Shown one piece after another: positions 39,943 to 59,022 of a stretch of 64,000 nucleotides of DNA. The stretch lies in the NCBI RefSeq assembly GCF_009914755.1, contig NC_060929.1; one strand, written 5' to 3'. This DNA comes from the human T2T-CHM13v2.0 reference genome, Homo sapiens. The notes under the pieces were generated by a model. That model searched no databases, was not told the origin of the DNA, and was given only the letters and a program-made list of their open reading frames with translations. Position 1 is the first letter of the stretch. The number at the start of each line of letters is the position of its first letter. A program made the translations under genes and the position numbers.

Positions 39943-40274
<332 letters not shown>

Positions 40275-40727
40275 TCAGACTTTCTAAGTCAGAGACAGAT
40301 AACACTCCACACAGAGAACTCTTGAACTCTTGATATTTTCTGCACAGTATGGAAGCTATTGGACAAGAAGCCTTTACAGACAAGGTTTTTTTTTTAAGGC
40401 CTACTGACAAGTACAATGCACACTTTTACCAGTCTTGTAAAACTATTTTAAAAACCAGATGGTATAGGAATGGAAATAAATAGATCTCTTTAAAAAAGAT
40501 ATAATTTTGGCAATAATATACGTTTCAAAGGGCAATGTAAAAATTCTGTTTCAAATCACCTCTACATGGGTCACTAAGATACTTTAACAGTAACTTATGC
40601 CAAATAAAAACTTATTAAAAAATAAAACCCCGAAAGTTAATAACTAAGATTTCTATTCTTTCTAAAGACTGTAGATTTGTTAAATGTTTCAATTGTTAGT
40701 CTATTCGATAAGAGTTGGGATTTTGTT

Positions 40728-41430
40728 CAGTGGCTCTCAACTGAGGGTAGTTTTGCCCCGCAGGAGACATTTGGCAATGTCTGAAAGCATTTTGCTTGTC
40801 ACAATTGGGGGAAGATTACTACATTTATTTAGTAGGTTATATAAGTTTTCATAACAAATTACCACAAATTAGGTGTCATAACAAATGACTACAAATTTGG
40901 TGGCAAAAACAACAAAAGTGTATTCTTTCACAGTTCTGGAGGCCAGGAGTCTGAAATCAAGGTGTTGGCAGGACCTTCCTCCTCTGAACTCTTGAGTGAA
41001 GAATCCTTCCTTGCCTCTGCCTAGCATCTGGGAGTTGCTGGCAACCTTGGCATTCCTTGGCTGTTGGTAGCTGCATTAGTCCAATATCTGCCTCTGTCTT
41101 TACATGATCATCCTCCCTCTGTATATGTCTCTGTCTCTGTTCAAATCTCCTTCTCCTTTTTTTATAAAGACCAGTCATTAGGTTTAGGGCTTACTCTAAT
41201 TTAGTATGACCTTATTTTAGTTCATTACATCTGCAAAGACCCTACTCCCAAATAAGGTCACTTTCACAGGTACCCAAGATCAGGGATTAAACATATCTTT
41301 TTGGGGTGTACAATTCACCCACCGCATATGTAGAGGCCAGGGATACTGCTAAACATTTTAGGATAACAGCTTGCCACGACAAAGAATTATCCAGCGGAAA
41401 ATGCCAACAGTACCAAAGTTGAAAACCTTG
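40728..41430. mobile_element. MER20 DNA transposon interrupted by an MLT1 (MaLR) LTR at ~40838-41325
   Basis: MER20-like ends (cagtggctctcaac...; gtagaggccagggatactgctaaacat) around MLT1 motifs (cacagttctggaggccaggagtctgaaatcaagg). Confidence 0.75.
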
Positions 41431-44136
41431 ATTTTGAACAGATACATCAGCAATACTGATTCTTCAATGTGATCATTCTTAATAATCTTCCAATGGCCCT
41501 GTGGCCCTAAATTCCTGTTCTGCATAGTTTAGGTGCAGACATTTTTAAAGTGTGAACATTTTTTGCCACCCTTCCCTCCCAAGAACACCCTCCTGCCAGG
41601 GGCCTATTTTGAGGACTTTTTATGAAGAAAAACCACATGCTGGATGGACGCTGAAATGCAAACCAGGAAAACAGTTATAGCTATTAGCTATCTCATTGCT
41701 TTTGGCTAAGTTACAAAAGCACTTTGGGCTTCAAGATCAATCAAACAAGGTATCTAAATTCCCTTTCAGGTTCTCAGAAGTATATAATTGCAAGGCTATT
41801 AAAAGCTTCTGGTTTGGGATTAGGGACACATTAGTACAATAACCTCAATAACTTCAAAAATGCCAGGAAAATGCTATTTTCAAAGAAAAGAATAACAACT
41901 CTTTAAAGGTAACATTCATAATTTCTATTCTAACATTATTTGAGATGTTCTATGTTTAAATAGTGGCAATTTTTATTAGGAGTAGAGTTTATTTTTAGCA
42001 AAGTGTTGTGAGGTTTGTTCTCCTACATCAGCATATATGTCATAAGTTATTAATTTCTAACGTTCACCTTATATTGTGCCATATGTGAGACCAGCTGTAC
42101 AAAGTTAATGTGAAAAGATTACACTTTAGAACAAATAGCCTCAACACATGTGATTTGTTTCTGTTGGAGGGCATATACACCTTTGGAAAATGATACCTAA
42201 GAACATTAACAGATTTCTCAACTACTGTTTTAGTTTAATACCTCGGTAAACTGAAGCTTTCTCAGGTAAACTAATTATTTTTGTTTCTTTTCAAACAATC
42301 TCAAAGTAGCAGAAACATTTCAGGAACAGAACATTTTCCCCTCTGAACCATATGAGTAAGTTTCTGACCTGATGCTTCATGCCCCACTAAAACATTACCG
42401 TCTATTTCCTACAAAGGACATTCCCCATACCATCACAATACAACCATTAAAATCAAGAAATGAATATATATGAAGCACCATCTCATCCCCACACCCCATC
42501 TAAGTTTCAAAAAAAAGTCCCTATAACGCACTTGGTAGCAAAAGGTTCCAGCTCAGAATCACACATTGCCGTTGGCTATCACTTCTCTCTAATGTGGCTT
42601 CACTCTGGACCTGTGACAGTCTCTTCTGACTTTTCCATAACCTTGACACTTTTTAAAATTCCAAGACAGTTCTGCTCTAATATGATTATATTTGAGGTAG
42701 GCATCTTTGGCAGGAAGATCATAGAAGTGATGCTGTGCTCTTCTCACCAGATCGTCTCAGATGGCATACCATTTTTTTGGTCTTTGATCATTTGATCAAA
42801 GTGCTGTCTGCCAAGCTTCTCCACTATAAAGTTACTCTTTTTCCCTTGATATTAGTAAGCATATTCTGAAGAGTTACTTTGAATCTTTAGTACTTTGTAC
42901 CCCATCAAAGTTTTCATTGATTTATTTTTTAATTTGCTTCAGTTGGTACTCATGAATCCCCATATTATTAAATGGGTTACAATCCACTAATATTATTATT
43001 TATTTTGATGCTCAATTTTGTCCCAGATTTGTCCAGTGGGAACCCCTTCATATTGGCTCCTGTATCTTTTTGACATGACTCATTATCCTTTGAGCACTCC
43101 ATTGCTTTCTGGCACAAGATGTTCTAGGCTTATCTGCTACTTTCCCACACTAGCCCTGAAATCAGCCATTTCTCCAAGAAGCCTTGGTTACTATTAGTAA
43201 AGAATGGTATTTAGAACCCAAGATCTGGGTGCTAAGTATACTCATCACTACTGGAAATCACTGCTAAGAATACATGTGCACATATTCATATACACATACA
43301 ACTTATAATGTATATCATATACACTTATGTATATGATATGCATGATACGTATTCATCATACATATATTTACACATATACTTGTTTAAAGCTATATACCTA
43401 TATAGACTTAAGTAAAGAGATAGGGATTTAATGTCATGGATTCCCATGGATACTGCCAACTGCAATCCAACACCACAGGGTTCATTCTACTTTTTCTCTA
43501 TCTTTATTTCATTCTTCTCTAGTGAAAAACCTAGATCCTATTATCTTTCCTAGATTTAATTATTTGATCCATCACCCTGTATACTGCTAAACTGTCATTG
43601 CTACTGCCACACCTGTCCCCACAGAGATGTCTCCTTACCCACTCAGGCTCCAACCTCCATCGCTGGTCTGACCCTCCTACATGCTTTCCTCCACATCTTG
43701 TTTGGGATCAAACATCACCCATCTGCTGCTCCTGCACAAAAGCCTTGTTAAACTTGCTCAACTCTGGGATCCTGTGTCAAGCTGCCCGCTGCAGGAGCAA
43801 CCATTCACTGTGCTCAGGCCCTAATACTCCACACCAGGCTGCCCTCCTGCCTGATGCCATCCTTACCAGGGTCAGCCTCAGATATCCTGATCTGGTCCCC
43901 TTGGGCTCCACCCACTTAGTGAGGATGTCTCCTTGCTCTTCCCCACCAAATAACTATAGGACCTATGGAGGGAAAGATGAGAGGGAGGAGGGAAGGGAAC
44001 GAGGGTGACAGAAGATGAGGAAGAGTCAGTTGCCCTAATTCTTAACAAATGTTTTCAACATATAATTTTTTTGTGATGATAAATTTAGGGTAAAAATGGT
44101 CATGCATCAGAAACATCACTATTAAAAGTAGGCTTA

Positions 44137-44452
44137 GGCTGGGCACCGTAGCTCTCGCCTATAATCCCAACACTTTGGGAGGCTGAGGCAGGAAGATCGC
44201 TTGAGCCTAGGAGTTCAAGGCCAGCCTAGGCAACCTAGTGAAACCCCATCTCTACAAAAAATACAAAAATTAGCCGGGTGTGGTGGCATATGCCTGTAGT
44301 CCCAGCCATGTGGGAGGCTGAAGTGGGAGGATCTCTTGAGCCCAGAAGGTCAAGGCTGCCCTGAGCCATGAGTGTGCCTCGGTACTCCAGCCTGAGTGAC
44401 AGAGTGAGACCCTGTCTCAAAAATTAAATGAATGAATGAATGAATAAATAAA
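44137..44452 (+). mobile_element. Alu (J-like)
   Basis: TSD taaaagtaggctta at 44123-44136 and 44453-44466. Confidence 0.93.
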
Positions 44453-44492
44453 TAAAAGTAGGCTTATGGTTCATCTGTTCCATTTAAACAGA

Positions 44493-44764
44493 TTTTGGTC
44501 TTTGATCATTTGATCAAAGTGCTGTCTGCCAAGCTTCTCCACCATAAAGTTACTCTTTTTCCCTTGATATTAATGAGCACATTCTGAAGAGTTACTCTGA
44601 ATCTTTAATACTTTGTACCCCATCAAACTTTTCATTGACTCCTTTTTAAATTTACATCAGTGGGTACTCATGAATTCCCATATTATTAAATGAGTTGCAA
44701 TCCACTAATATCATTATTTATTTGATGCTCAATTTGTCCCAGATTTGTCCAGTGGGAACCCCTT
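44493..44764 (+). repeat. ~270-bp direct copy of 42775-43048 (old L1M-like fragment)
   Basis: Colinear match starting ttttggtctttgatcatttgatcaaagtg and ending gtccagtgggaacccctt; TTTAAA on both sides. Confidence 0.9.
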
Positions 44765-46441
44765 TAAATGTCCTTAAAGGTAAAAACTGCCAGCATGTTC
44801 TACTGAGATATGGACTAACAATGTCAGTCAGACATATGTGGGTGCTTGAATAGTATTTGCTTCAAAAATATTTATTACTAGAAAGCTGCTGTGTTTGGGG
44901 TGAGAGGTTAGTAGGGAAGGGGGTTCATAAAGGGAATGCAAAAGCCACGTCCTCTGGAAGTTAAAAGGATCATTTTAAATGATTCTACTGCAAACATTTT
45001 TCAAAAGATAAACATGACCCATTTCTCCAATTTGTGTCATGTAATAGTAATAATAATGATATTTAAATACTCCCACTGATATATCCTTTACAAAGATATA
45101 TTATATGTCTTATTTAATCAAAAAACCTTAAAACAGTCCCTGTACCTAATTTTATTCCAGGACTCAAACTGTGTCAGCATGTCATTCAGTGCAAATCAGA
45201 CATTTAGATGCATAGGCTATGCTGTCAGTAGTTCTGAACTTTCATAGACATTTCCAATTAGCTCGGAGAGACAACTGGATATTGTGTTTAAGCACTGTGT
45301 TTAGGAAAACAGGCACTGGATGGACCAATGCCAAATTTCCTGCTCTGCTGCTTAACTAAGTATGTGTAATTACTTGGGCAATTAAGCAATTACTTGGGCA
45401 ATTACATAAGCCAAGCCCCAATTTCTTCATCTTGAGCCCAGAAGGTCAAGGCTGCAGTGAGCCGTGAATGTGCCTCTGCCCTCCAGCCTGAGCGACAGAG
45501 TGAGAATTCCCCAGGAGTGCAGAGGTTCTCAGAACTGCAATACTCTGAGATGAATTTTGAAAGGTGAATCAGGGATAGAAGAATTAGGGATACCCAGAAA
45601 GGAGAAAAATGTTCTAGACAATTCTTTTTTCTTTTTTCAGCTGGAACTAAAAAAATGCTAACTCATAGGGCTATACATTTATAACTATTCTTATTATTAA
45701 AATTTGACTCAAAGTCTTAGGTTAACAGACAACCTGTGTCTAAGTATGTAGGCCTATACATCTAGGTCAAAAATATCCAGTAAACCTCACAATATCCTTT
45801 GGCAAAGAGAAAAATGAATTTCCCAGAGATCAATACCGAATCTAGAAAACAAGCTGAGAGTGCCTGACAATTTTTAATTCTGGCTTAAATTCGATGCTAA
45901 CTTCATAACTTTTGTCTTGTACATTATTCCACAATTTTAGCTTACGTGGAGCTAAAAGAGCAGAACTTATACCATATACATAGAGTGACATCCCCTCCCC
46001 CATTCATCTTATTGATTTACACCTTCATTTATTCCACTTTCATTTGTTTCCTACCTTTTTTTTTTTTTTTCCTTTAGAGATCTTCTCTGCATATCAACTT
46101 AACCCTGACGCCTATGGAATAAGTATTTACCTAACAGTGCACTGTCTAGGCCATATCATTTTAAAGCTGTGGTTTTTAACCAGCTTAAAATCACATTTAA
46201 AGCTACATGGAGAGCTGATGAAACTCCTTAATGCCCACACTGAATCCCAAGCCAAATGAACCAGAGTTTTGCGGGAAAAGATCCAGGTATCAGGATTTTT
46301 CAAGCTCTCTGGTGATTCTGACATACAGTCAAGTAGAGAATCAAAGTTCTACAATGAATCCAGAATGCACTGGTTCTCAGAACTGCAATACTCTGAGGTG
46401 AACCAGGGATAGAAGAATTGGAGATACCCAGAAGGGGGAAA
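44691..46441 (+). repeat. Source segment of the local duplication (block A 44691-45580, block B 45569-46441)
   Basis: A matches 50323-51211 as reverse complement; B matches 51209-52081 directly with offset 5640. Confidence 0.95.
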
Positions 46442-46459
46442 AATGTCCTGGACAATTCT

Positions 46460-46755
46460 GTTTCTTTTTCTTTCTTTTTTTTTGAGACAGTTTTGCACTG
46501 TCACCCAGGCTGGAGCTTAGTGGCACCATCACCATCATAGCTCACTGCAGCCTCAAACTTTGGACTGAAGCAATCTTTCTGCCTTGGCATCCCAAGCACC
46601 TGGGACTACTGGTGTACATCACCACAACCGCACTTTTAATTTTTTTTTTTTTTTTTAATAAAGAAGGGACCTTGCTATGTTGCCCAGGGTGGTCTTGAAC
46701 TCCTGGATTCCAGCCATCCTCCCACCTCAGCGCCCAAAAGTGCTGGGATTACAGG
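46460..46755 (-). mobile_element. Alu (J-like), 5'-truncated
   Basis: TSD cctggacaattct at 46447-46459 and 46756-46768. Confidence 0.9.
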
Positions 46756-47401
46756 CCTGGACAATTCTTTATAAGTGGTATTATGGAAAAGAGATGTGGC
46801 ACAAGGAAATCTGCGAAGGAACCCAAGATGTTCTGTCCAAGTTGTTAACAACTAGACGTTTTAAAAGGCATTTATAAAAATTAATAGTCTTACCTTTTGA
46901 TTATCCTTCCTTCTCTATGGTGTGTTACAAAAATTCCACATCTTACAAGCCCATGAAAATAAATTCCCATGAGAGTTTGAAAACTTTTTGCAGAATAATG
47001 TCCCAATTTTAGTTACTGGTGGCCAATATTTACCAGCTTGAGAGGTGGTCTTTTATTACCCTTACTGGCTGGTAACATTTATGACACAGAAACTTGCAAT
47101 AGGTTGGATGGAATCCTTTCAATATGAAAAGTAATTATAAACAGGTGAAGGTAGAATGGCAACTTTCGTGTTGGCTTTGTTAATGTTTTGCACGTAATCC
47201 CTCTGTCAAAGTGTCTTAAACAATAAAACAACAAGCAAAAATCTCACACATACACACACACACATGCACACACACATTTTGTTTTCAAAGACCACGGTGT
47301 AAAATGAAGATACACACACGTTATCCTGTAAGTTGTGGATCTTTGGTTGGCTAGTTGGTTATGATGTTTTTTCCCCTACTCAGCTCTAAAAAAACATCCT
47401 C

Positions 47402-47772
<371 letters not shown>

Positions 47773-47899
47773 TCAAGAAAAGGGAGTAGGCCTTGGGGAA
47801 ATGTGGCTTTCAAAATTCATGCCATATTTGCCCAAGCCAAGTCGCTAGCTGGTCCCTGCAACCACCCACACACCCCACTGCCTTCTTCCTAGGAAAAAC

Positions 47900-48650
47900 C
47901 AGACTCTGCCCTGTTACCTACGCGCCCGACTCGCGGGGCGCTGTTCGTTCAAGACTCGCCCCAAAGAGCGCAGGAACGCGAGCCGCAGCAGTTTCAGGGT
48001 TCAGCTTAGGTGACACAAACGTAGCTAATGGGAGGCCGCCGCCGACTCTCCCACCCGCCCTTACCAGCATCCCCGCGCCTCTCCCCGCCACCCTTGCCCG
48101 GCGCGCCGGCGATGCCCTCTGCCCGCGGGGACCCGAGCCTCGCGCGCCCTCCGCCCTCCCTACCCTGGACCCTGTACCCATCACACCTGGGGCACTGCCG
48201 TCCGCCGAGCTTGGGCGCGCGGCAGCGAGAAGGCACTGGAGGAGGAGCAGCCGGGGCGTACGCGCCCTGGCCTCCAGCAGGCCGGGGAGGGCGCGCATGG
48301 CGCCAGAGGGTCCGCCTGGGTCCTCGTGGAGACTGCTCCCTCAGCTCGCCGCCGCGGGTGTCCAGAGTCCCTGCGCACACTCGCAGGTGGCCCGGCGCTC
48401 GCAGCCAGTGCCGCGGGTAGGACGCTGAAGAAAAGGCGGCATGGGAGGGGCCCGGCCGCCTTGCCCCACTCCCCCGAGACGCTCTTACCGCGCCCGGCCC
48501 TCCATCAGTTATGCAGCCCTCAGCCGGCTGCTGGCGTTCCCGGATGTGCGGTGGCGGTGCTACTTCCCGGCTGCAGCCTCTCCGGCCTCCGCCCTCTCGG
48601 CTCTAGCAGGTCGGGAGAGAGCTTGGGCAGGTGATGTCTAGCCAATCTCG
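47900..48650 (-). promoter_or_regulatory. EMB: CpG island promoter, 5'UTR and exon 1 of EMB
   Basis: Sharp rise in GC and CpG density in an otherwise AT-rich window; GC-box-like motifs; spans the start codon. Confidence 0.92.
48187..48298 (-). CDS. EMB: Embigin coding exon 1 (signal peptide, MRALPGLLEA...ADGSAP)
   Basis: ATG at 48298 inside a CpG island; 112 nt; donor CAG|GTGTGA at 48187/48186; phase 1 joins exon 2 in frame; peptide recognised as the embigin N-terminus. Confidence 0.97.
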
Positions 48651-50322
48651 TGGGGAGAGGTCGAAACTCTGCCTACAGACTGGCCTTTGCACTTCACCTG
48701 AGGCAGGTTTCACTAATTTGCTTTGATGGGACAGATGAGAGACACTTTTCTCCTCCCGGACCCCGGACATCTTTGGGCTTTCTTACGAGGGAGGCTTATT
48801 TTTGCGCAGGTGTAAGGTTTTATCCAGCTGCCAGACAACTTGTGTTAATCTTTCTTTGCTTTGCCTACCAATCACACACATTCTCTCTTCTAGTCTCTGA
48901 AGGCTTAACTGATTTTCTCCGGATGAAGGTTTTAGAGTCCCAAGGCCCCATACCGTGTCTGATTTTACTTTATTTTTGTTTGTTAAGCCTAACAGCTTCT
49001 GAGGAGCCACCTAGAGCTCAAGAAGCAAAAGCTACTGAGAGTAGATACTATGTAAACTGCACAAGACATTGACCTTTGTTAAATCCGAACACTCTTTAAG
49101 ATAATGCTCTTACCCACAAGGCTGTAGCTTGGAATATTCAGTGCTCTGAACCAAATTAAATAAATTAGTGCTTTATCCGGGAGGGGAGGAGAAATCTATA
49201 TTGTAACATTGAAACACATTGATTTGATTTCTCTCCAGGATGTTATAACGCATTAAAAGATATTTTTAAAATTTTTCACGAGCTTTGTTTCCTCTCCCTT
49301 TATTTTTTTGAAGTTCAGCTTTCACATTCGTAAATTCAAAATATATCGGCGTTAAAAAAAAAAAGGATTGGAAATAACATGAGACAAATTTTGAAAATTG
49401 AGCTATTTAACAAAACCTGTGTTTATTCCAGGCAGGAATGGTTAATTTGTAATTGGTACGTATTACTAAAACACGTCTGTTTCTGGTTTAGTATTATATG
49501 CACAAAACTTTGGAAACAGAATGTAGATTCTTCAAATTGGCAGTGAGATAATATGAATAATACAATTCATTCAACAATATTATCTACCAGGTGCCAATCT
49601 ACCATTGTGTTCAAAAGAGGCTAGATAGGCACACATGCACAAATGCACGCATGCACACATGTACACACACACACACACACAAATTAGACAACTGTTTATC
49701 TGTGAATGACAAATCTCAGAAAAGCCTCTTCTCAGAAAATTATGGTCAAAATGATTAAAATCTTCTGAATGAAACTTTAAAAGATGCCTTCAAGGACTAA
49801 ATCTTATACACTGTTGACCCTCTGAGGGCATTGACTGGGCTTGCTAAACCCAAATTGCCTAATCAATGGCTGCTACATCACACCTCTTTCTTTCAACCCT
49901 GCATCTGGTCTCAGGACTAACTGCACACATTTCCCTATAATTAGGTAGAGTGTCAACAGTAAGCACTTCTCACCTCAAACTAAACTCTGACTGACTTTTC
50001 CCAGTTAGTCTCATAAAATCCTTAGACACAAATTCACCCTTCTTAAAGAAACATTTTTTTCAGTTGAATCAGCCTATTTATGACCAGAAAAACTTACTTA
50101 CCCCAGTTGATGCTGATCCCCACTGTTGCTTTTGCTGTTGGAACAAAAGAGTTGAGAAAGAAATATAATTCTCATTTTGCTAAGCATTTTGAAAGTCTTT
50201 TCATCACTGTTCCTGTTCTATATTTAGATATTTGATATTTCCAGCCTTATGTACATTCCACTTTTTCAAATGCTCCATATCCTTTAAAACAAGCTTATTG
50301 ACTGCCTTCCCTATATAACTTT

Positions 50323-52081
50323 TTCTATCCCTGATTCACCTTTCAAAATTCATCTCAGAGTATTGCAGTTCTGAGAACCTCTGCACTCCTGGGGAATTCT
50401 CACTCTGTTGCTCAGGCTGGAGGGCAGAGGCACATTCACGGCTCACTGCAGCCTTGACCTTCTGGGCTCAAGACGAAGAAATTGGGGATTGGCTTAAGTA
50501 ATTGCCCAAGTAATTGCTTAAGTAATTGCCCAAGTAATTACACATACTTAGTTAAGCAGCAGAGCAGGAAATTTGGCATTGGTCCATCCAGTGCCTGTTT
50601 TCCTAAACACAGTGCTTAAACACAATATCCAGTTGTCTCTCCGAGCTAATTGGAAATGTCTATGAAAGTTCAGAACTACTGACAGCATAGCCTATGCATC
50701 TAAATGTCTGATTTGCACTGAATGACATGCTGACACAGTTTGAGTCCTGGAATAAAATTAGGTACAGGGACTCTTTTAAGGTTTTTTGATTAAATAAGAC
50801 ATATAATATATCTTTGTAAAGGACATATCAGTGGGAGTATTTAAATATCATTATTATTACTATTACATGACACAAATTGGAGAAATGGGTCATGTTTATC
50901 TTTTGAAAAATGTTTGCAGTAGAATCATTTAAAATGATCCTTTGACTTCCAGAGGACGTGGCTTTTGCATTCCCTTTATGAACCCCCTTCCCTACTAACC
51001 TCTCACCCCAAACACAGCAGCTTTCTAGTAATAAATATTTTTGAAGCAAATACTATTCAAGCACCCACATATGTCTGACATTGTTAGTCCATATCTCAGT
51101 AGAACATGCTGGCAGTTTTTACCTTTAAGGACATTTAAAGGGGTTCCCACTGGACAAATCTGGGACAAATTGAGCATCAAATAAATAATAATATTAGTGG
51201 ATTGCAACTCAGGGATAGAAGTATTGGGGATACCCAGAAGAGAGAAAAATGTTCTAGACAATTCTTTTTTCTTTTTTCAGCTGGAACTAAAAAAATGCTA
51301 ACTCATAGGGCTATACATTTATAACTATTCTTATTATTAAAATTTGACTCAAAGTCTTAGGTTAACAGACAACCTGTGTCCAAGTATGTAGGCCTATACA
51401 TCTAGGTCAAAAATATCCAGTAAACCTCACAATATCCTTTGGCAAAGAGAAAACTGAATTTCGCAGAGATCAATACCGAATCTAGAAAACAAGCTGAGAG
51501 TGCCTGACAATTTTTAATTCTGGCTTAAATTCGATGCTAACTTCATAACTTTTGTCTTGTACATTATTCCACAATTTTAGCTTACATGGAGCTAAAAGAG
51601 CAGAACTTATACCATATACGTAGAGTGACATCCCCTCCCCCATTCATCTTATTGATTTACACCTTCATTTATTCCACTTTCATTTGTTTCCTACCTTTTT
51701 TTTTTTTTTCTCTTTAGAGATCTTCTCTGCATATCAACTTAACCCTGATGCCTATGGAATAAGTATTTACCTAACAGTGCACTGTCTAGGCCATATCATT
51801 TTAAAGCTGTGGTTTTTAACCAGCTTAAAATCACATTTAAAGCTACATGGAGAGCTGATGAAACTCCTTAATGCCCACACTGAATCCCAAGCCAAATGAA
51901 CCAGAGTTTTGCGGGAAAAGATCCAGGTATCAGGATTTTTCAAGCTCTCTGGTGATTCTGACATACAGTCAAGTAGAGAATCAAAGTTCTACAATGAATC
52001 CAGAATGCACTGGTTCTCAGAACTGCAATACTCTGAGGTGAACCAGGGATAGAAGAATTGGAGATACCCAGACGGGGGAAA
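50323..52081. repeat. Rearranged copy of the intron-1 segment (inverted A plus direct B) flanked by the 10-bp direct repeat AACTTTTTCT
   Basis: Near-identical to 44691-46441; AACTTTTTCT at 50317-50326 and 52080-52089. Confidence 0.95.
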
Positions 52082-52275
52082 CTTTTTCTGACCTTTCTGG
52101 TCCAAATTGACCTTTTCCTCCTTGGTGAAATAAATATTGCAACAAGCACTTTGATACTCTCATCATGAAGCGTATAAAGGGGGAATAAGGGTCCTTTGTT
52201 TTCTCCCCTTGAGTTGGGTGGGCTCTTTGACTCCCCTAACCTACTGAATATTGCTGAAGAGATACTGTGTGGGCT

Positions 52276-52585
52276 GGCCAGGCGTGGTGGCTCGCGCCTG
52301 TAATTCCAGCACTTTGGGAGGCTGAGGCAGGCAGATCACAAGGTCAGGAGCTCGAGACCAGCCTGGCCAATATGGTGAAACCCCGTCTCTACTAAAAATG
52401 CAAAAAAAAAAAAAAAAAAAAAAAATTAGCTGTGCATGGTGGCGCATGCCTGTAATCCCAGATACTTGGGAAGCTAAGTCAGGAGAATTGCTTGAACCCA
52501 GGAGGCAGAGCTTGCGGCAAGCCAACATCGCACCACTGCACTCCAGCCAGGGCAACAGAGCAAGACTGTCTCAAAACAAAAAAAG
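52276..52585 (+). mobile_element. Alu (S-like) with expanded middle A-tract
   Basis: Full-length Alu consensus match. Confidence 0.92.
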
Positions 52586-53169
52586 AGAGAGAGAGATTGT
52601 GTGAGCTTTCTGTTCCAGACCACAAGAGCTTCCACTTCCTTTCTGTTGGAGATCTTGCTCATAGAAGACACCTGCCTAGTGAAAAGTACTACAGTATTAT
52701 CCTGAGACTGCCACACTGTGAGAAACCCAAACGCCATGGAGGACCCCGTAAAAATAAAGTCAGGTCAAGTAAAAAAGGAATATGAAGGTTTATTATACAT
52801 ACAGAAGAATAGTTCACAAACCAGAAGACTTCAAATCAAAAGTAGTAAGAAACTTGACGTGAGAGTTACAGTGCAGCTTATAAAGCATCAATGAGGAAGT
52901 GCATTGACCTCTGCTGTGACTGGCTATTAAAAACATATTCCTTTTTGGGCAAGTAGAGTTGTATAAACTTATTTATCTGTAACAAATTGGTTCAATTTCA
53001 TCATACTAACAAGAAAGGAAAGCTTAACTTTTGTTAATCATTAGAAATTGCATTTCAGAGAAATCAGGATAGCTTAAATTTTGGTTATGTGGCTATGAGT
53101 GGTTGACCTAAGAATATACTGTTGCCTCCATTTTGATTATACTTTAACAAATCCCTCATACAGGACCTT

Positions 53170-55193
53170 AAATCATTGTTGATTGTTTCCTTTGCTGTGC
53201 AGAAGCTTTTTAGCCTGGTTCAATGCCATTTGTCTATTCTTTCTTGGTTGCCTGTGCTTTAGAGGTCTTACACAAAATGTCATTGCTCAGCCTAATGTCC
53301 TGGAACACTTCCGCAAAGTTTTCATCTAATTGTTTCATAGTCATAGTTCCAGGTATTAGATTTAAACCTTTCATCCATTTTAATTTTATTTTTGTGTATG
53401 GTGAGATATAGGGGTTTATTTCATCCTTCTACATGTAATTACCCAGTTTTCCCAGCACCATTTATTAAACAGACTCTCCTTTTCCTATTGTATGCTCTTG
53501 GTGCTGTTGTTGAAGATGAGTTGGCTGTCAATGCATTGATTTATACCTGGGTTCTCTATTCTGTTTCATTGGTCTGTGTGTCTGTTTTCTTGCCAGTTCT
53601 ATGCTAATTTGGTTACTATAGCTTTTTTTTTTAATGTTTAATTTTTGTTTTAAGTTCCAGGGTACATGTGCAGAATATGCAGGTTTTTTATGTAGGTAAA
53701 TGTGTGCCACCGTGGTTTGCTTCACAGATCATCCCATCACCTAGGTATTAAGCCCAGCATGCATTAGCTATTCTTCCTGATGCTTTCCTTCCTGCAACAC
53801 CCCACCCCCAAAAGGCCAAGTATGTGTCCATGTGGTCTCATCATTCAGCTCATTCAGGTGAGAATATGTGGTGTTTGGTTTTCTGTCCCTGCGTTCATTT
53901 GCTGAGGATAACAGCTTCCAGCTCTGTCTATGTCCCTACAAAGGACATGATCTTGTTCCTTTTTATGGCTGCATAGTATTCCATGGTGTATATGTACAAC
54001 ATTTTCTTTATCCATTCTACCATTGATGGGCATTTTGATAGATTCCATGTCTTTAATATTGTGAATCGTTGGTTATTATATCTTTGCAGTAAATTTTGAA
54101 GTCAGGTAATGTGATGCCTCCAGCTTTTTTTGTTTTTTTCTTATTTTGCTTGGAATTGCTTTGGGTCTTCAGGGTCTTTCTGGTTTCATATAAATTTTAG
54201 CATTTGTCCTATTTCTGTGAAGAATGGCATTGGTCTTTTAATAAGGGTTGCATTAAATCTGTAAATTGCTTTGGATAGTATTGTCATTTTAGCAATATTA
54301 ATTCTTCCAATCCATGACATAGAATATCCTTATTAATGTTTTGTTCAATTACTTTAATCAGTTTTTTATAGTTATATTTGTATAAATCTATCAGTGTTGG
54401 TGCACAGATGTATATAATGGTTACATTTTCTTGCTGAATTGACCTTTTTATCATTATGTAGTAACCTTCTTTATCTCTTTTTACAATCTTTCATTTGTAG
54501 TCTATTTCCTCTAATATAAGTATAGTTACTCCCACTCTCTTTTAGTTTCCAGTTGCATGCAATATCTTTTTTCACCCCTTCACTTTCAGTCTATCTATAT
54601 CTTTAGAGGTGAAGTGGGTTTCTTATAGGCAGCATGTAGTTAGGTATTGTTTGTTTATCCATTCAGCCACCCTATGCCTTTTAATTGGAAAATTGAGTCC
54701 ATTTAAATCCAGTATTATTATTGATAAGTAGGGAATTGCTACTGCCATTATGTTGCTTATTTTCTGGTATTTTGAAACTCCTCTCTTCTTTTCTTCTTTT
54801 CTCACTCTCTTCTTTTGGGGTTAAGTGATTTTCTGTGGTAGTATGTTTTAATTTGCTGTTTTTTAATTTTTGTGAATCTATTATAGGTTTTTGCCTTATG
54901 GTTACTATGAGGTTTACAAAAAAATCTTGTAGATATAACAAGTTATTTTAAAGAGATGACAATTTATCTTAGATCACAAAGAATAGAGACAAACAAAAAA
55001 TGAAACTTCCACATTTTAACTTCATTTCTCTCTCATTTTGAATTTTAATTGACTTTACATATTTTTATATTACCTATCTCTTAACAGGTTTCTGTAGCTA
55101 TTATTGTTTTTGATAGATTTGCTTTTTGAGGCTTCATATTAGAGTTATAAGTGGATTGCACACTACAATTATAGTATCAGAGTATTCTGAGTT
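53170..55193 (-). mobile_element. Old L1 fragments with a nested L1PA 3' end (~53622-54068)
   Basis: L1 antisense motifs; the nested element is bounded by ttggttactata / ttggttattata; the old L1 appears to resume after the provirus at ~59541. Confidence 0.75.
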
Positions 55194-55749
55194 TGTGTCC
55201 GGGATTTATTCCTTCTGGTGGATTCGTGGTCTCGCTGACTTCAAGAATGAAGCCGCAGACCTCGCAGTGAGTGTTACAGCCCTTAAAGGTGGCATATCCA
55301 GAGTTTGTTCCTTCTGGTGGGTTCGTGGTCTCGCTGACTTCTGGAATGAAACCACAGACCCTTGTGGTGTTACAGCTCATAAAGGTAGTGTGGACCCAAA
55401 GAGTGAGCAGCAGCAAGATTTATTATGAAGAACGAAAGAATAAAGCTTCCACAGCATGGAAGGGGACCCAAGCAGGTTGCTGCTGCTGGCTCTGGTGGCC
55501 AGCTTTTATTCCCTTATTTGGCCCCACCCATGCCCTGCTGATTGGTCCATTTTACAGAGTGCTGATTGGTCCATTTTTACAGAATGCTGACTGGTGCATT
55601 TACAATCCTCTAGCTAGACAGAAGAGTTCTCCAAGTCCCCACCTGACCCAGAAACCCAGCTGGCTTCATCTGTCTATCCCCCCTCTAAATAGGACACCCT
55701 AACTGCTGTGGGAATTGTGCTATGACCACTTTAGCTACTTCCTGCTGGA

Positions 55750-56290
55750 TAGAGGGAAAGAAGGGGCCCTGCAGTGGTAGTGTCCTCCAGAGGGGAACTC
55801 TCTAGGCCAGCCAAAGGGCCAGTGAGTTGATCCAGGGGTCCTCAGTAGAAGTTGTTAGTTGAGCTCATTTAGGGTTCCATTTGTAAGACCTCTATGTCTT
55901 GATGGCATGGATCCTGGAGGAAACAAATTTGACAAGGAGGTTAAAAACACACAGCCCGAAGGTGAGTAATAGCAAGATGGCTGAAACAGGACCTAGAAAT
56001 GGGAGAAGCCACGTTGCCCAACTTCAGAGGTTGGTATAAGAGTTTGAAAGGCATTGTCTGATTTAAAAAGCCTTTTCCTGTAAATGCCGGGCAGCATTTT
56101 GTACTATCCCTGACTGGTTAGTGTAAAAACAACAGTCTTCCCCTAAGAAAGTGCTGAGTCCTCCTTTCTCAGCAGTGAGGAGGTCTAGGCCTCGGCGGTT
56201 TTGGAGAGTCACTGCTACCAGAGTCTATTTGGGATTGTAGAGTAAGGATAGATTTTGTTATTTTTTGCAAACTGTCTGAGAAATCCTTTG
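55750..56290 (-). pseudogene. env TM-subunit remnant with immunosuppressive domain
   Basis: Minus-strand translation at 56206-56156 gives [17 protein letters not shown], followed by [16 protein letters not shown] and an in-frame stop. Confidence 0.88.
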
Positions 56291-56914
56291 AGATTAATAG
56301 CAAAGAATAATTGAAATCCCAAACTTACAAAGTTTTCAACAAAACTACAGTTTGCTAAAAGTTAACAGTGTAACATGTATTATCCTACTACCACACACTA
56401 AGACCTTATTAACTTAGAATTGGTATAGATGGCTCCTTCCTGATTCTGTAAGTACTTTAAGGTTTGGCTGAGTGCAAACAACTGGCACATTTGAGCAGAC
56501 CAATTGTTAGGCAATTTTCCTAATTCTGCTTCTACAAGAGTTTCCTTATCACTTACTGAATACCCATTGTGTCTTTTTCCCTTAATCTCCCGGGAGGAAA
56601 CATCTATCATCCCGTCCTGAAGGGAGTACTTCCTAGGTCTGGTCAGACCTTTGTATGGTAATTAATTAAGATTTAGATCCCCTGTTAGGAAACCTGCTGG
56701 GTTAAGGATATTTTTATAGGAAAGCTACAGTTTTGATAGGAAGGCTATGGGTTGTCAGTGGCCTCAGTGTTTTTGGGCTACACCCTTGTTTACACTGACA
56801 ACAAGGTGGTTTGGAGTGTTATAGGGTTATGGAGAAGACCTTCAATTATAAATTATAGGTTTAAAATTTACCCTGGATTTTAAAGGAATAAGATACACTG
56901 TTTTTTCTTTACTG

Positions 56915-57110
56915 CTTCCATCTCTCTTTCTCTTTGACTTCTTCTTTGTCTCTCTCTTTCTCTCTTTCTGACTCCCTCTTTGTCTCTTCCTCTTTCTCTG
57001 ACTTTCTATCTCTCTCTTTCTCTCTCTCTCTGACTCCCTCTTTGTCTCTGTTTCCTCTTCTCTCTCCCTCTCTCTCTGACTTTCTGTCTCTCTCTTTCCT
57101 TTCTGCTGGT
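56915..57110. repeat. CT-rich simple repeat inside the provirus
   Basis: Repeated tctctctttc / ctgact units. Confidence 0.9.
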
Positions 57111-57572
57111 CTTTGCCTGCCTCTGCCAGCTGCTTATGCTGCTGCTCTCCCCTCTCCTTCCCCGTTTTGATGGCTTCAGCAGTGTAAGACTACCACCTCC
57201 TTGGGTTTTTGCACTGTGTGCAATAACTCCATGATTTCCTTGTGGTATTTAATGGGGCTCCCCCAGAGGTTAGGAACTCCCTTTCTTTCCATATTGCAGC
57301 ATGGGCATGTAGGATTAGATAAGCATACTTAACATCTGTAGCAAAGTCTCCCAATTAGAACTGAGGAGGTGGGAGAAATACCTGGTTACAGGCTGTCCCA
57401 AGATTCCTCGGATGGTAATGGACCTTGAGGACAGCTGTCTGGGACAGGAGATTAACACTGAGAAAGATGCACCAGTGTCCAGGAGGAAGTCAATTTCCTG
57501 GCCCTCAATAGATAAATGTACCTGAGGCTCAGTAAGGTTGATGACATGAGCTGGCGCTTGCCCTGGGCACCC

Positions 57573-59022
57573 TCAGTCCTGTTGTTGGATCATCTGGTTG
57601 GGGATTTCTGACCCAGAGAACCTTTGTCCTCTGGGGCAATGAGCCTTCCAGTGATAGCCTTGGCATAATGGACATGGGTGAGGGGGCGGCTTGTTTCTCA
57701 TTGGACAATCTTTTTTAAAGTGTCCTTGCAAACCACACTGATAACAAGCCCTAACAGGTGATTGGCCTGCTCCATTTTCTGTCCTGTCTGAACCACCAAG
57801 GTTTGTCTGAGGGCCATGACTAAGGCTGTGGCCTTTCTCCGATCTCACTTTTCCTTTTCAGCCTGTTCCTCTTGGTCCCTATTATAGAACACTAAGGTTG
57901 CCAGGTTTAATAATGCCTCCAGATTTTGTTCAGGGCTCAGAGCTCGCTTTTGGAGCTTTCTCCTGATATCTGCGGCTGATTGGGTAATAAACTTATCTTT
58001 TAGGGTCAATTGACCCTCGAGGGAGTCAGGTGACAGGGGAGTATATTTTCTTAGGGTCTCCTGTAGCCACTCAAGGAAAGCAGGATTTTCTTCCTTTCCC
58101 TGAGTTATGGTGGACTTCATTGAATAATTCATGGGCTTTTTTCTAATTCTCCTTAGTCCTTCTAGAACACAGATCAACAGATGTTTGTGACTCCAGTCCC
58201 AATGATGTGAGTCTAGGTCCCAGTGGGGATCCATACTGGGGATGGCTTGCTGACTGGTAGGGAATTTGTCCCTTTCTTCGTCTGTCACTCTATCATTTAC
58301 TTGACTAAGATACCAGGTATCTTCAAACTCTCAGGCTGCAGCTAAAGCCGCATTCTTTTCATTAAAGGCCAGGGTTTGATCTAATAGCATGACATCTCTC
58401 CAAGTGGGATTGAATGTTTGCCCTAGACCCTGTAGGACATCTATATACCTATCAGGATCATCTGAAAACTTCCCCAGGTCTGCCTTGATCTGCTTTAAAT
58501 CAGAGAGGGAGAAGAGGACATGTACCCAGGTTGGGCCAAATTCCCCACTCCCTACAGCTTAAAGAGGACATAACTGATAGCCTGGGGGTTTTTGTGCTCA
58601 CTTGGAGATTTCTTTCCTTGTTTCCTTCTGGGCAGGGATATTAGAGGAGGCTTATCATTAATAGGAAGGGGAGCTATAGGGAAGCTAGGATATGGGGGTA
58701 AGCTGACAGGTCCTCTTGTGGGATATAAATTAGAAGATTTGCATAGTTGTGGATTCTCCTTCAATGAAAAGAAAGCTTGGATATAAGATATTTCACTCCA
58801 TTTGCCTTCCCTTTTACAGAAAAGGTCAAGCTGCAGGATAGTATTGTAATTTGTACTTCCCTCAGGTGGCCATTTTTCCCCATCAGAGAGATGATATTGG
58901 GGCCAGGCCATATTGCCAAAAAAAATGAGCCACCTCTTTTTCAGGGTTTGCTGGTCAAATTGGTCCCAATGGCTTAGGATGCATTGCAAGGGTGGGCCTG
59001 TTGGTGTCTGAGTGTTTCCCAT
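57573..59022 (-). pseudogene. Disrupted gammaretrovirus-like gag (MA, CA, NC)
   Basis: Three frameshifted ORF pieces: MGNTQTPTG...[25 protein letters not shown] (major homology region) and a CCHC knuckle. Confidence 0.9.

What the first reader, a model, noticed from the sequence alone, without database searches (positions are those of the whole stretch)
50317..52089. Twin-primed-looking copy of EMB intron 1 inserted upstream of its own promoter
Seen: 50323-51211 is the reverse complement of 44691-45580 (A), and 51209-52081 is a direct copy of the adjacent 45569-46441 (B). The insert is flanked by a 10-bp direct repeat AACTTTTTCT (50317-50326, 52080-52089). The left repeat ends in TTCT, complementary to AGAA at the source breakpoint (AGAAGAA pairs 7/7 with one G-T wobble). 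The inversion junction has TCA microhomology, the arms overlap by 12 bp (TCAGGGATAGAA), and the right end stops in GGGGGAAAAA with no poly-A tail. Known: TSD, inverted 5' part, forward 3' part, TSD with these microhomologies is the geometry of L1 twin priming. Inference: both target ends copied the same (+) strand, which is antisense to EMB. This points to in-cis repair or retro-copying from a local antisense RNA or ssDNA about 4-6 kb away, using mostly non-L1 intronic sequence.
Basis: partly seen in the sequence, partly recalled or inferred. Interest (0 to 1): 0.85.

Follow-up and report, generated by a model that had tools for sequence, protein, structure and literature searches.

The report
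Local twin-primed-like copy upstream of EMB
A 1.76-kb piece of embigin intron 1 was copied once, half flipped and half direct, into a site 1.9 kb upstream of the gene, in a shape typical of LINE-1 twin priming but without a poly-A tail, and it now carries an annotated alternative first exon.

Summary
Window 50320-51211 is the reverse complement of 44691-45583 (98.0%), and 51209-52081 is a direct copy of 45569-46441 (98.5%). AACTTTTTCT flanks the insert on both sides. The EMBP1 paralogue on chromosome 1 keeps the intron segment contiguous. Its upstream site is empty and carries a single AACTTTTTCT, so the upstream copy is the derived one and the repeat is a real target-site duplication (4-10 bp once microhomology is allowed for).

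The copied sequence occurs at only three places in the genome. The two copies differ by 21 substitutions (1.2%), 9 on the insert lineage and 10 on the source lineage. This makes it an old, independently evolving copy rather than an assembly artefact.

All three junctions show microhomology (TTCT, TCA, AA). Both break ends copied the same + sense single strand, and the two arms overlap by 8-15 nt. That is the geometry of twin priming. However, there is no poly-A tail, the source lies 3.9-5.6 kb away in cis, and no + strand gene is annotated.

I favour local single-stranded DNA as the template (0.42). The rivals are a local RNA copied by L1 ORF2p (0.25) and serial fork switching (0.20).

The insert also supplies the annotated alternative EMB first exon 50340-50447 and its splice donor.

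The parts
50317..50326 (.). Left copy of the target-site duplication AACTTTTTCT. Its last four bases, TTCT, are microhomology with the source.
   Evidence: The site is single-copy in the chr1 paralogue.
50320..51211 (-). Inverted arm: reverse complement of source 44691-45583.
   Evidence: 97.99%, 897 columns, 9 mismatches, 3 gaps. pairs I1-I4.
51209..52081 (+). Direct arm: copy of source 45569-46441. Its first three bases, TCA, are microhomology with the end of the inverted arm.
   Evidence: 98.51%, 873 columns, 13 mismatches, 0 gaps..
52080..52089 (.). Right copy of the target-site duplication. Its first two bases, AA, are microhomology with the A run of the source.
44691..45583 (+). Source segment A in EMB intron 1, copied in inverted orientation.
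   Evidence: Contiguous with B in the chr1 paralogue.
45569..46441 (+). Source segment B in EMB intron 1, copied in direct orientation. It ends in GGGGGAAAAA.
45569..45583 (+). Stretch of the source present in both arms (8-15 nt). It holds AGAAGAA (45577-45583), where the left break end primed.
50340..50447 (-). Annotated alternative first exon of EMB, lying wholly inside the inverted arm. Its donor AAAG|GTGAAT is the copy of source + strand 45554-45573.
   Evidence: Hub annotation for the exon coordinates. for the splice sites.
50102..50134 (-). Annotated second exon of the alternative transcript, outside the insert. It has a canonical acceptor (CCAACAG|) and donor (GGG|GTAAGT).
   Evidence: Hub annotation..
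45515..45636 (+). R1, an older local repeat. The inversion breakpoint lies in it.
   Evidence: 78.7% to R2 over 122 columns.
46363..46469 (+). R2, the second copy of the same older repeat. The 3' end of the copied segment lies in it. R1 and R2 give the insert its imperfect sub-terminal inverted repeat (50349-50388 and 52003-52042, 90%).

Best explanation
This is one duplicative insertion of about 1.76 kb. It was made after the EMB/EMBP1 duplication, at a break with short 3' overhangs in AACTTTTTCT, 1.9 kb upstream of the main EMB start.

Both 3' ends annealed through 2-4 nt of microhomology to one single-stranded, + sense copy of intron 1, and both were extended in the same direction along it:
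1. The right-hand (bottom-strand) end primed on the A run at 46437-46441 and copied back to 45569. There it ran into the spot where the other end had primed.
2. The left-hand (top-strand) end, ...TTTTTCT-3', primed on AGAAGAA at 45577-45583 and copied back to 44691.
3. The two new strands were joined through TCA.

The template was most likely DNA. The best candidate is the + strand of the break's own left flank, laid bare by 5'-to-3' resection, so that the left end snapped back on its own strand and the right end primed on it in trans.

Shown: the structure, its derived state, the empty site, the junction microhomologies, and the strand that was copied.
Inferred: that the template was DNA, how it became single-stranded, and which nuclease and polymerase acted.

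The flipped half later came to serve as an alternative EMB promoter and first exon.
For: - Structure and identity.
- Empty site with one AACTTTTTCT and a contiguous A-B segment in the chr1 paralogue.
- Microhomology at 3 of 3 junctions (4, 3 and 2 nt). The joint chance for random joins is about 2e-4.
- The direct arm stops 8-15 nt past the point where the inverted arm starts. This is expected if one extension collided with the other primer on a single-stranded template.
- The source lies 3.9-5.6 kb to the left of the target in cis. Resection of the left break end would expose exactly the + strand that was copied (my inference from the coordinates).
- There is no A tail. The hub annotation lists no + strand gene in the window.
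- Copying was accurate. Of the 21 differences, 9 fall on the insert lineage, 10 on the source lineage and 2 are ambiguous.
- Break ends that use their own flank in reverse complement (snap-back) and the other end in trans are documented for polymerase theta repair (PMC5068794, passages read).
- Templated insertions and inverted duplications at ORF2p-made breaks are reported (PMC11702581, passages read).
Against: - A target-site duplication from 3'-overhanging staggered nicks is the hallmark of L1 endonuclease. The top-strand nick site reads TTCT/GA, four pyrimidines then two purines. That class of site has a background frequency of 2.1% per position.
- The overall shape is what ORF2p twin priming gives. 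In PMC11702581 the internal breakpoints of inverted insertions were close together, with short deletions in 22 of 32 and short duplications in 10 of 32.
- Documented snap-back inserts are mostly under 25 bp and are templated within tens of bases of the break. Here 0.9 kb was copied from 4.7 kb away.
- Resection of at least 5.6 kb is needed.
- The low error count argues against polymerase theta itself as the copier.
- Nothing in the sequence tells RNA from DNA.
Confidence: 0.42

Rival explanations
1. L1 ORF2p made the staggered nicks and reverse-transcribed a local + sense RNA, antisense to EMB. This could be a nascent transcript still tethered at the locus. The T-rich top-strand end primed on AGAAGAA and the bottom-strand end primed on the A5 run. 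That would be true twin priming on a tail-less, unspliced template.
For: - A target-site duplication of up to 10 bp, confirmed by the empty site.
- A pyrimidine-run/purine nick site, TTCT/GA (background 2.1%).
- An inverted 5' part and a direct 3' part with a small overlap, plus junction microhomology, as described for ORF2p twin priming (PMC11702581).
- ORF2p inserts non-L1 sequences, including intronic and intergenic ones (PMC5110952, text parts 1-2 read).
- The primer TTTTTCT pairs with AGAAGAA at 6 of 7 positions plus one G-T pair.
Against: - No poly-A tail and no polyadenylation signal near 46441. Class 1 templated insertions are defined by both.
- For an RNA used in trans, a source within 6 kb of the target would be a very unlikely coincidence. 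Use of a tethered nascent RNA is not an established route.
- No + strand gene is annotated in the window (hub table).
- 10 bp is below the 12-18 bp duplications reported for inverted insertions in PMC11702581.
- There is no editing-like skew among the 9 insert-lineage changes, though the power is very low.
Confidence: 0.25
2. Serial template switching of one nascent strand (FoSTeS/MMBIR). A top strand growing at the target left at ...TTTTTCT and landed on the lagging-strand template of a fork stalled near 45.57-45.58 kb. It filled that template back to 44691, switched to the leading-strand template at the same fork, and copied 45569-46441. It then returned to the target 10 nt behind its point of departure.
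For: - Microhomology at all three junctions.
- A nearby template and a net copy gain.
- Complex germline variants with small templated insertions are generally explained this way (PMC3638133, passages read).
- A stalled fork at 45.57 kb would explain why both landings lie within 15 nt of each other (inference).
Against: - It needs three switches and a special fork arrangement, where the two-ended model needs one break.
- The exact 10-bp duplication is then only an accident of where the strand re-entered.
- No other trace of a fork problem is visible, and no further template pieces occur in the insert.
Confidence: 0.2
3. One of two two-step or fragment-capture origins. Either a plain direct copy of 44691-46441 was inserted first and its left half was later inverted in place, or two double-stranded fragments of the source were captured by end joining in opposite orientations.
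For: The insert equals the source segment with its left half flipped in place. Capture of DNA patches at breaks is known (PMC5110952).
Against: - A later inversion would need one breakpoint to fall exactly at the insert boundary while leaving the 10-bp duplication intact.
- Fragment capture does not explain the 8-15 nt shared by both arms, nor microhomology at all three joins.
- The two arms are equally diverged from the source (8 of 863 and 13 of 869 columns).
Confidence: 0.07
4. Assembly artefact: a misplaced second copy of the intron segment.
For: None found.
Against: - The copies differ by 21 substitutions and 3 indels. The paralogue assigns these to both lineages (9 insert, 10 source, 2 ambiguous).
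- The junctions are clean, with a target-site duplication that matches an independent empty site.
- RefSeq places a spliced exon inside the insert (hub table).
Confidence: 0.01

Closest known systems
L1 twin priming (5'-inverted L1, Alu, SVA and processed-pseudogene insertions). The original description is recalled. Its features are taken from PMC11702581.
   Same: A target-site duplication from 3'-overhanging nicks. An inverted 5' part joined to a direct 3' part of one template. Internal breakpoints a few bases apart (here a small duplication). Microhomology at the 5' junction and at the inversion junction. A pyrimidine-rich nicked strand.
   Different: No poly-A tail. The template is unique, unspliced intron sequence, antisense to its gene. 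The source is only 3.9-5.6 kb away on the same chromosome. The duplication is 4-10 bp rather than 12-18 bp. There is no evidence that the template was RNA.
Templated sequence insertion polymorphisms, classes 1 and 2 (PMC5110952; abstract and text parts 1-2 read).
   Same: A copy-paste insertion of non-repeat intronic sequence with the donor left intact. It has a class 1 feature (target-site duplication) and class 2 features (microhomology, no tail).
   Different: It fits neither class. Class 1 requires a poly-A tail and signal. Class 2 has no duplication. Both are described as coming from distant regions, and neither is described as half inverted.
Polymerase-theta end joining with templated inserts, by snap-back in cis and copying of the other end in trans (PMC5068794, passages read).
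   Same: Break ends prime by minimal homology on flanking single strands. A reverse-complement piece comes from the end's own flank and a direct piece from copying in trans. Aborted extension is followed by re-annealing.
   Different: Those inserts are mostly under 25 bp, are templated within about 50 nt, come with deletions, and are error-prone. This one is 1.76 kb, is templated 4-6 kb away, comes with a duplication, and shows no excess of errors.
FoSTeS/MMBIR complex rearrangements and fold-back inverted duplications (PMC3638133, passages; PMC3907307 and PMC11293582, search listing only).
   Same: Microhomology junctions, local templates, mixed orientations and copy gain.
   Different: Those events usually involve far larger segments and do not leave a neat short duplication of the target. 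Here the two template pieces abut with an overlap, which points to two primers on one strand.

Membership tests
L1 ORF2p-mediated insertion with twin priming | Target-site duplication flanking the insert | tested here: met
   AACTTTTTCT is present twice in the window and once at the empty site of the chr1 paralogue. The true length is 4-10 bp.
L1 ORF2p-mediated insertion with twin priming | Inverted 5' part and direct 3' part that adjoin in the template, with a small deletion or duplication | tested here: met
   Reverse complement of 44691-45583 followed by 45569-46441. The overlap is 8-15 nt.
L1 ORF2p-mediated insertion with twin priming | Poly-A tail at the 3' end of the copied template | tested here: not met
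   The copy ends in GGGGGAAA next to the target. The source has only A5 there.
L1 ORF2p-mediated insertion with twin priming | Nick at an L1 endonuclease site (TTTT/AA type) | tested here: inconclusive
   The top strand reads TTCT/GA, which fits the four-pyrimidine/two-purine class but differs from the consensus at two positions. The bottom strand reads AGTT/AT. The class frequency is 2.1% per position.
L1 ORF2p-mediated insertion with twin priming | RNA template | not testable with these tools
   There is no splicing, tail or editing signature. No expression data are on hand. The annotation shows no + strand gene.
Templated sequence insertion, class 1 | Duplication of at least 5 bp, plus a poly-A tract, a signal 10-20 nt upstream, and a TTTT/A site | tested here: not met
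   The duplication may qualify. The tail and the signal are absent.
Templated sequence insertion, class 2 | No target-site duplication, and end-joining features at the junctions | tested here: not met
   Microhomology is present, but so is a duplication of 4-10 bp.
Polymerase-theta templated insert | Short, error-prone insert templated from the immediate flank, usually with a deletion | tested here: not met
   The insert is 1.76 kb, was copied from 3.9-5.6 kb away, has no deletion, and shows 9 insert-lineage against 10 source-lineage changes.
FoSTeS/MMBIR template-switch product | Microhomology at every junction and templates in physical proximity | tested here: met
   Microhomology of 4, 3 and 2 nt, and a source within 6 kb. 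These features are not exclusive to this family.
Transposable-element insertion (a member of a repeat family) | Multiple dispersed copies in the genome | tested here: not met
   The non-Alu parts hit only 3 places in the whole assembly: source, insert and chr1 paralogue. The search skips very common words, so old diverged repeats are not excluded.

The most novel reading that the evidence does not exclude
The template was a nascent + sense RNA still attached at the locus. Both ends of a break, possibly one made by L1 endonuclease, primed on it through microhomology. That would be a germline example of tail-less twin priming on a local transcript, meaning RNA-templated break repair that pasted intron sequence ectopically. 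In the same step it gave EMB a new promoter and first exon.
Probability: 0.25. Interest if true: 0.75.

Novelty: new variant of a known kind. Interest (0 to 1): 0.55.

Why it matters
This is a clean natural specimen, backed by an empty site, in which the full geometry of twin priming appears without the two features that normally tie that geometry to L1 retrotransposition: a poly-A tail and an unlinked RNA source.

It therefore bears on two questions:
- Can two-ended, microhomology-primed copying of a single strand work on local DNA, or on nascent RNA, at kilobase scale in the primate germline?
- How reliable are "target-site duplication plus inversion" calls as markers of L1 activity?

It also shows a structural mutation creating an annotated alternative first exon and splice donor for a gene out of that gene's own flipped intron sequence.

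Tried and rejected
- Earlier notes of this scan could not be consulted.
- No ape or monkey genome is reachable with these tools, so the orthologue test was replaced by the paralogue test.
- I tested whether the copied segment belongs to a repeat family. It does not, apart from a 76-nt Alu fragment: 3 of 3 scored candidates were the source, the insert and the paralogue, for each of two non-Alu pieces.
- I looked for an editing or error signature that would betray an RNA or cDNA step. Among 9 insert-lineage substitutions there are 3 A>G, 1 T>C, 2 G>A, 1 G>T, 1 A>T and 1 A>C, with no excess over the source lineage. This is uninformative at that count.
- I asked whether longer homology between target and source guided the event. 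The target resembles the reverse complement of R1, at a score reached by 0.47% of 3000 random 80-mers. Three segments were tested; the other two scored 16% and 86%. This similarity does not give the observed junctions, so I treat it as unexplained.
- The sub-terminal inverted repeat of the insert (I11) is a by-product of the older direct repeats R1 and R2, not a transposon end.
- Literature searches turned up no description of this insertion. In one search, 10 of 14 papers were listed. For the one paper I opened (PMC13122177), the EMBP1 passages concern a chimeric transcript and give no date for the duplication.
- One search failed on a term with brackets and was re-sent without that term.
Full report
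**What is there**

A self-comparison of the region shows two matches:
- Window 50320-51211 is the reverse complement of 44691-45583 (897 columns, 9 mismatches, 3 gap openings, 97.99%).
- Window 51209-52081 is a direct copy of 45569-46441 (873 columns, 13 mismatches, no gaps, 98.51%).

The "100%" that one search prints for one 421-nt arm is a rounding. It has 2 mismatches. AACTTTTTCT flanks the block at 50317-50326 and 52080-52089.

**Which copy is derived**

The whole assembly could be searched. The 1.77-kb block has only one further relative, on chromosome 1 at 121530581-121532300. That is the EMBP1 paralogue, and there the two halves are contiguous and co-oriented, as in EMB intron 1.

I fetched 20 kb of that locus and aligned it to the window:
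- Window 41012-50326 matches chr1 121536000-121526677 (94.1%).
- Window 52080-58000 matches chr1 121526686-121520688 (92.1%).
- The two alignments overlap on chr1 by exactly the 10 bases 121526677-121526686.

Printed out, the paralogue reads ...CCCTATATAACTTTTTCTGACCTTTCTGG.... This is an empty site with one AACTTTTTCT. The intron segment is therefore ancestral, the upstream copy is an insertion, and the flanking repeat is a target-site duplication. TTCT at the left junction and AA at the right junction could come from either partner, so the duplication is 10 bp at most and 4 bp (CTTT) at the least.

**It is not a mobile element and not an artefact**

Two pieces of the source without the Alu fragment (45640-46360 and 44765-45425) each hit three places in 3.1 Gb: source, insert and paralogue. 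The tool skips very common words, so ancient diverged repeats are not ruled out.

The copies differ by 21 substitutions in 1732 comparable columns, which is 1.21% (Poisson range 0.75-1.85%), plus three small indels. With the paralogue as outgroup:
- 9 substitutions fall on the insert lineage, 10 on the source lineage, and 2 are ambiguous. I excluded position 45581, which lies in the junction microhomology and is target sequence.
- Both copies are 4.33% (75 of 1732) from the paralogue.
- The insertion therefore dates to about 0.28 of the time since the EMB/EMBP1 split.

From recalled figures, 1.2% is about the human-chimpanzee distance. The insert may be human-specific or shared with African apes, and I could not test this. 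Balanced divergence excludes a misassembled duplicate. It also shows no burst of copying errors.

**Anatomy of the junctions**

The pre-insertion top strand read ...TATAT AACTTTTTCT GACC....
- Left junction: the target end ...TTTTTCT-3' is followed by the reverse complement of the source, starting at AGAA (45580-45583). The wider source tract AGAAGAA (45577-45583) pairs with TTTTTCT at 6 of 7 positions plus one G-T pair.
- Right junction: the copy stops in GGGGGAAA. It shares AA with the target, whose bottom strand would end ...AAAAAGTT-3'.
- Middle junction: the end of the inverted arm (source 44691) and the start of the direct arm (45569) share TCA.

For random joins in window 40000-56000, microhomology of at least 4, 3 and 2 nt occurs with P = 0.020, 0.060 and 0.170, jointly about 2e-4.

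It follows from the orientations that both 3' ends were extended on the same + sense strand, in the same direction. The extension that began at 46441 ended 8-15 nt beyond the place where the other had begun. That is what one expects if two primers sat on one single-stranded template and the downstream extension ran into the upstream primer. This is the twin-priming geometry. For ORF2p-made inverted insertions, PMC11702581 reports:
- discrete target-site duplications;
- microhomology at the 5' junction in 71% of cases;
- internal breakpoints close together, with short deletions in 22 of 32 and short duplications in 10 of 32 (passages read).

**What the template was**

This part is inference.

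*For L1 ORF2p on an RNA:*
- the target-site duplication;
- the shape of the insert;
- the top-strand nick site TTCT/GA, which is four pyrimidines then two purines. That class occurs at 2.1% of positions per strand in the region. The exact consensus TTTTAA occurs at 0.16%.

*Against L1 ORF2p on an RNA:*
- There is no poly-A tail and no signal near 46441. Both are defining for L1-type templated insertions (PMC5110952).
- The duplication is shorter than the 12-18 bp.
- The hub table lists no + strand gene in the window.
- Above all, the source lies 3.9-5.6 kb from the target on the same chromosome. That would be an extreme coincidence for an RNA used in trans.

*For a local DNA template:*
- It explains the proximity.
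- It explains the polarity. If the break was resected 5' to 3', the left flank is left as a + strand tail, which is the strand that was copied. The left end can then snap back on its own tail at AGAAGAA, while the right end primes on the same tail at the A run.
- Snap-back in cis and copying of the other end in trans are documented for polymerase-theta repair (PMC5068794).

*Against a local DNA template:* the polymerase-theta inserts are mostly under 25 bp, lie next to the break, and are error-prone. In size, distance and accuracy this event lies far outside that family.

A third route is serial template switching at a fork stalled near 45.57 kb. It can also produce the structure, but it needs three switches, and the exact 10-bp duplication becomes an accident.

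My odds:
- single-stranded DNA with two-ended priming: 0.42
- ORF2p on a local RNA: 0.25
- serial fork switching: 0.20
- two-step origin or fragment capture: 0.07
- artefact: 0.01

**Consequence for the gene**

The hub annotation lists exons 50340-50447 and 50102-50134 of another EMB transcript, and the gene span ends at 50447.
- The first of these exons lies wholly in the inverted arm.
- Its donor is AAAG|GTGAAT. This is the copy of + strand 45554-45573, where the same motif lies antisense to EMB in the intron.
- The second exon has a canonical acceptor and donor.
- The start of the first exon falls in a 76-nt Alu fragment that was copied along.

Flipping half of the copy therefore put a latent donor, and the sequence upstream of it, into the sense orientation 1.9 kb above the main start at 48435. 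I have no expression data. That the exon is used rests on the annotation alone.

**Comparison with what is known**

The event works like twin priming. It fails the membership test for an L1-type retrocopy on the tail. It fits neither class of templated sequence insertion polymorphism. It also lies outside the size and distance range of polymerase-theta inserts. I file it as a new variant of a known kind.

In the searches I ran I found no description of this insertion. Those searches cover only the held open-access library, and I read listings and passages, not whole papers. Supplementary tables of structural-variant catalogues, which I did not open, may list it.

Noticed in passing
window 42775-43048 and 44493-44764: An older direct local duplication of 274 bp in intron 1 (92.7% identical) with sharp boundaries. 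Both copies are also present in the chr1 paralogue, so it predates the EMB/EMBP1 split. The far end of the copied segment (44691) lies inside the second copy.
   Followed up: partly
window 45515-45636 and 46363-46469: Another old direct local repeat (R1 and R2, 78.7% over 122 columns, with a 14-nt indel). The inversion breakpoint lies in R1 and the 3' end of the copied segment lies in R2. I cannot say whether this is more than coincidence.
   Followed up: partly
window 50287-50326 + 52090-52129 versus 45555-45634: The pre-insertion target resembles the reverse complement of R1 (TATAAC-TTTTTCTGACCTTTCTGG against TAGAACATTTTTCT--CCTTTCTGG). The local score is reached by 0.47% of 3000 random 80-mers. 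Three segments were tested. This could be chance, an old third copy of R, or homeology that helped bring target and source together.
   Followed up: partly
window 45430-45505 (copy at 50398-50473): A 76-nt fragment of the 3' part of an Alu, without an A tail, sits directly upstream of R1. Its copy in the insert holds the annotated start (50447) of the alternative EMB transcript.
   Followed up: partly
window 50497-50540 (source about 45365-45405): A short tandem array of 12-mers (TAATTGCCCAAG / TAATTGCTTAAG type). The insert copy is 4 bases longer than the source and the paralogue.
   Followed up: no
window 55205-55290 and 55304-55386: A small tandem duplication of about 85 bp, 83.7% identical, seen in the self-comparison.
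   Followed up: no
L009/L010 (chr1 121516001-121536000) versus window 41012-58000: The EMB/EMBP1 duplication covers the EMB promoter, intron 1 and at least 5.9 kb upstream, at 92-94% identity. Apart from the 1.76-kb insert, no large indel appears over 41012-50326.
   Followed up: partly
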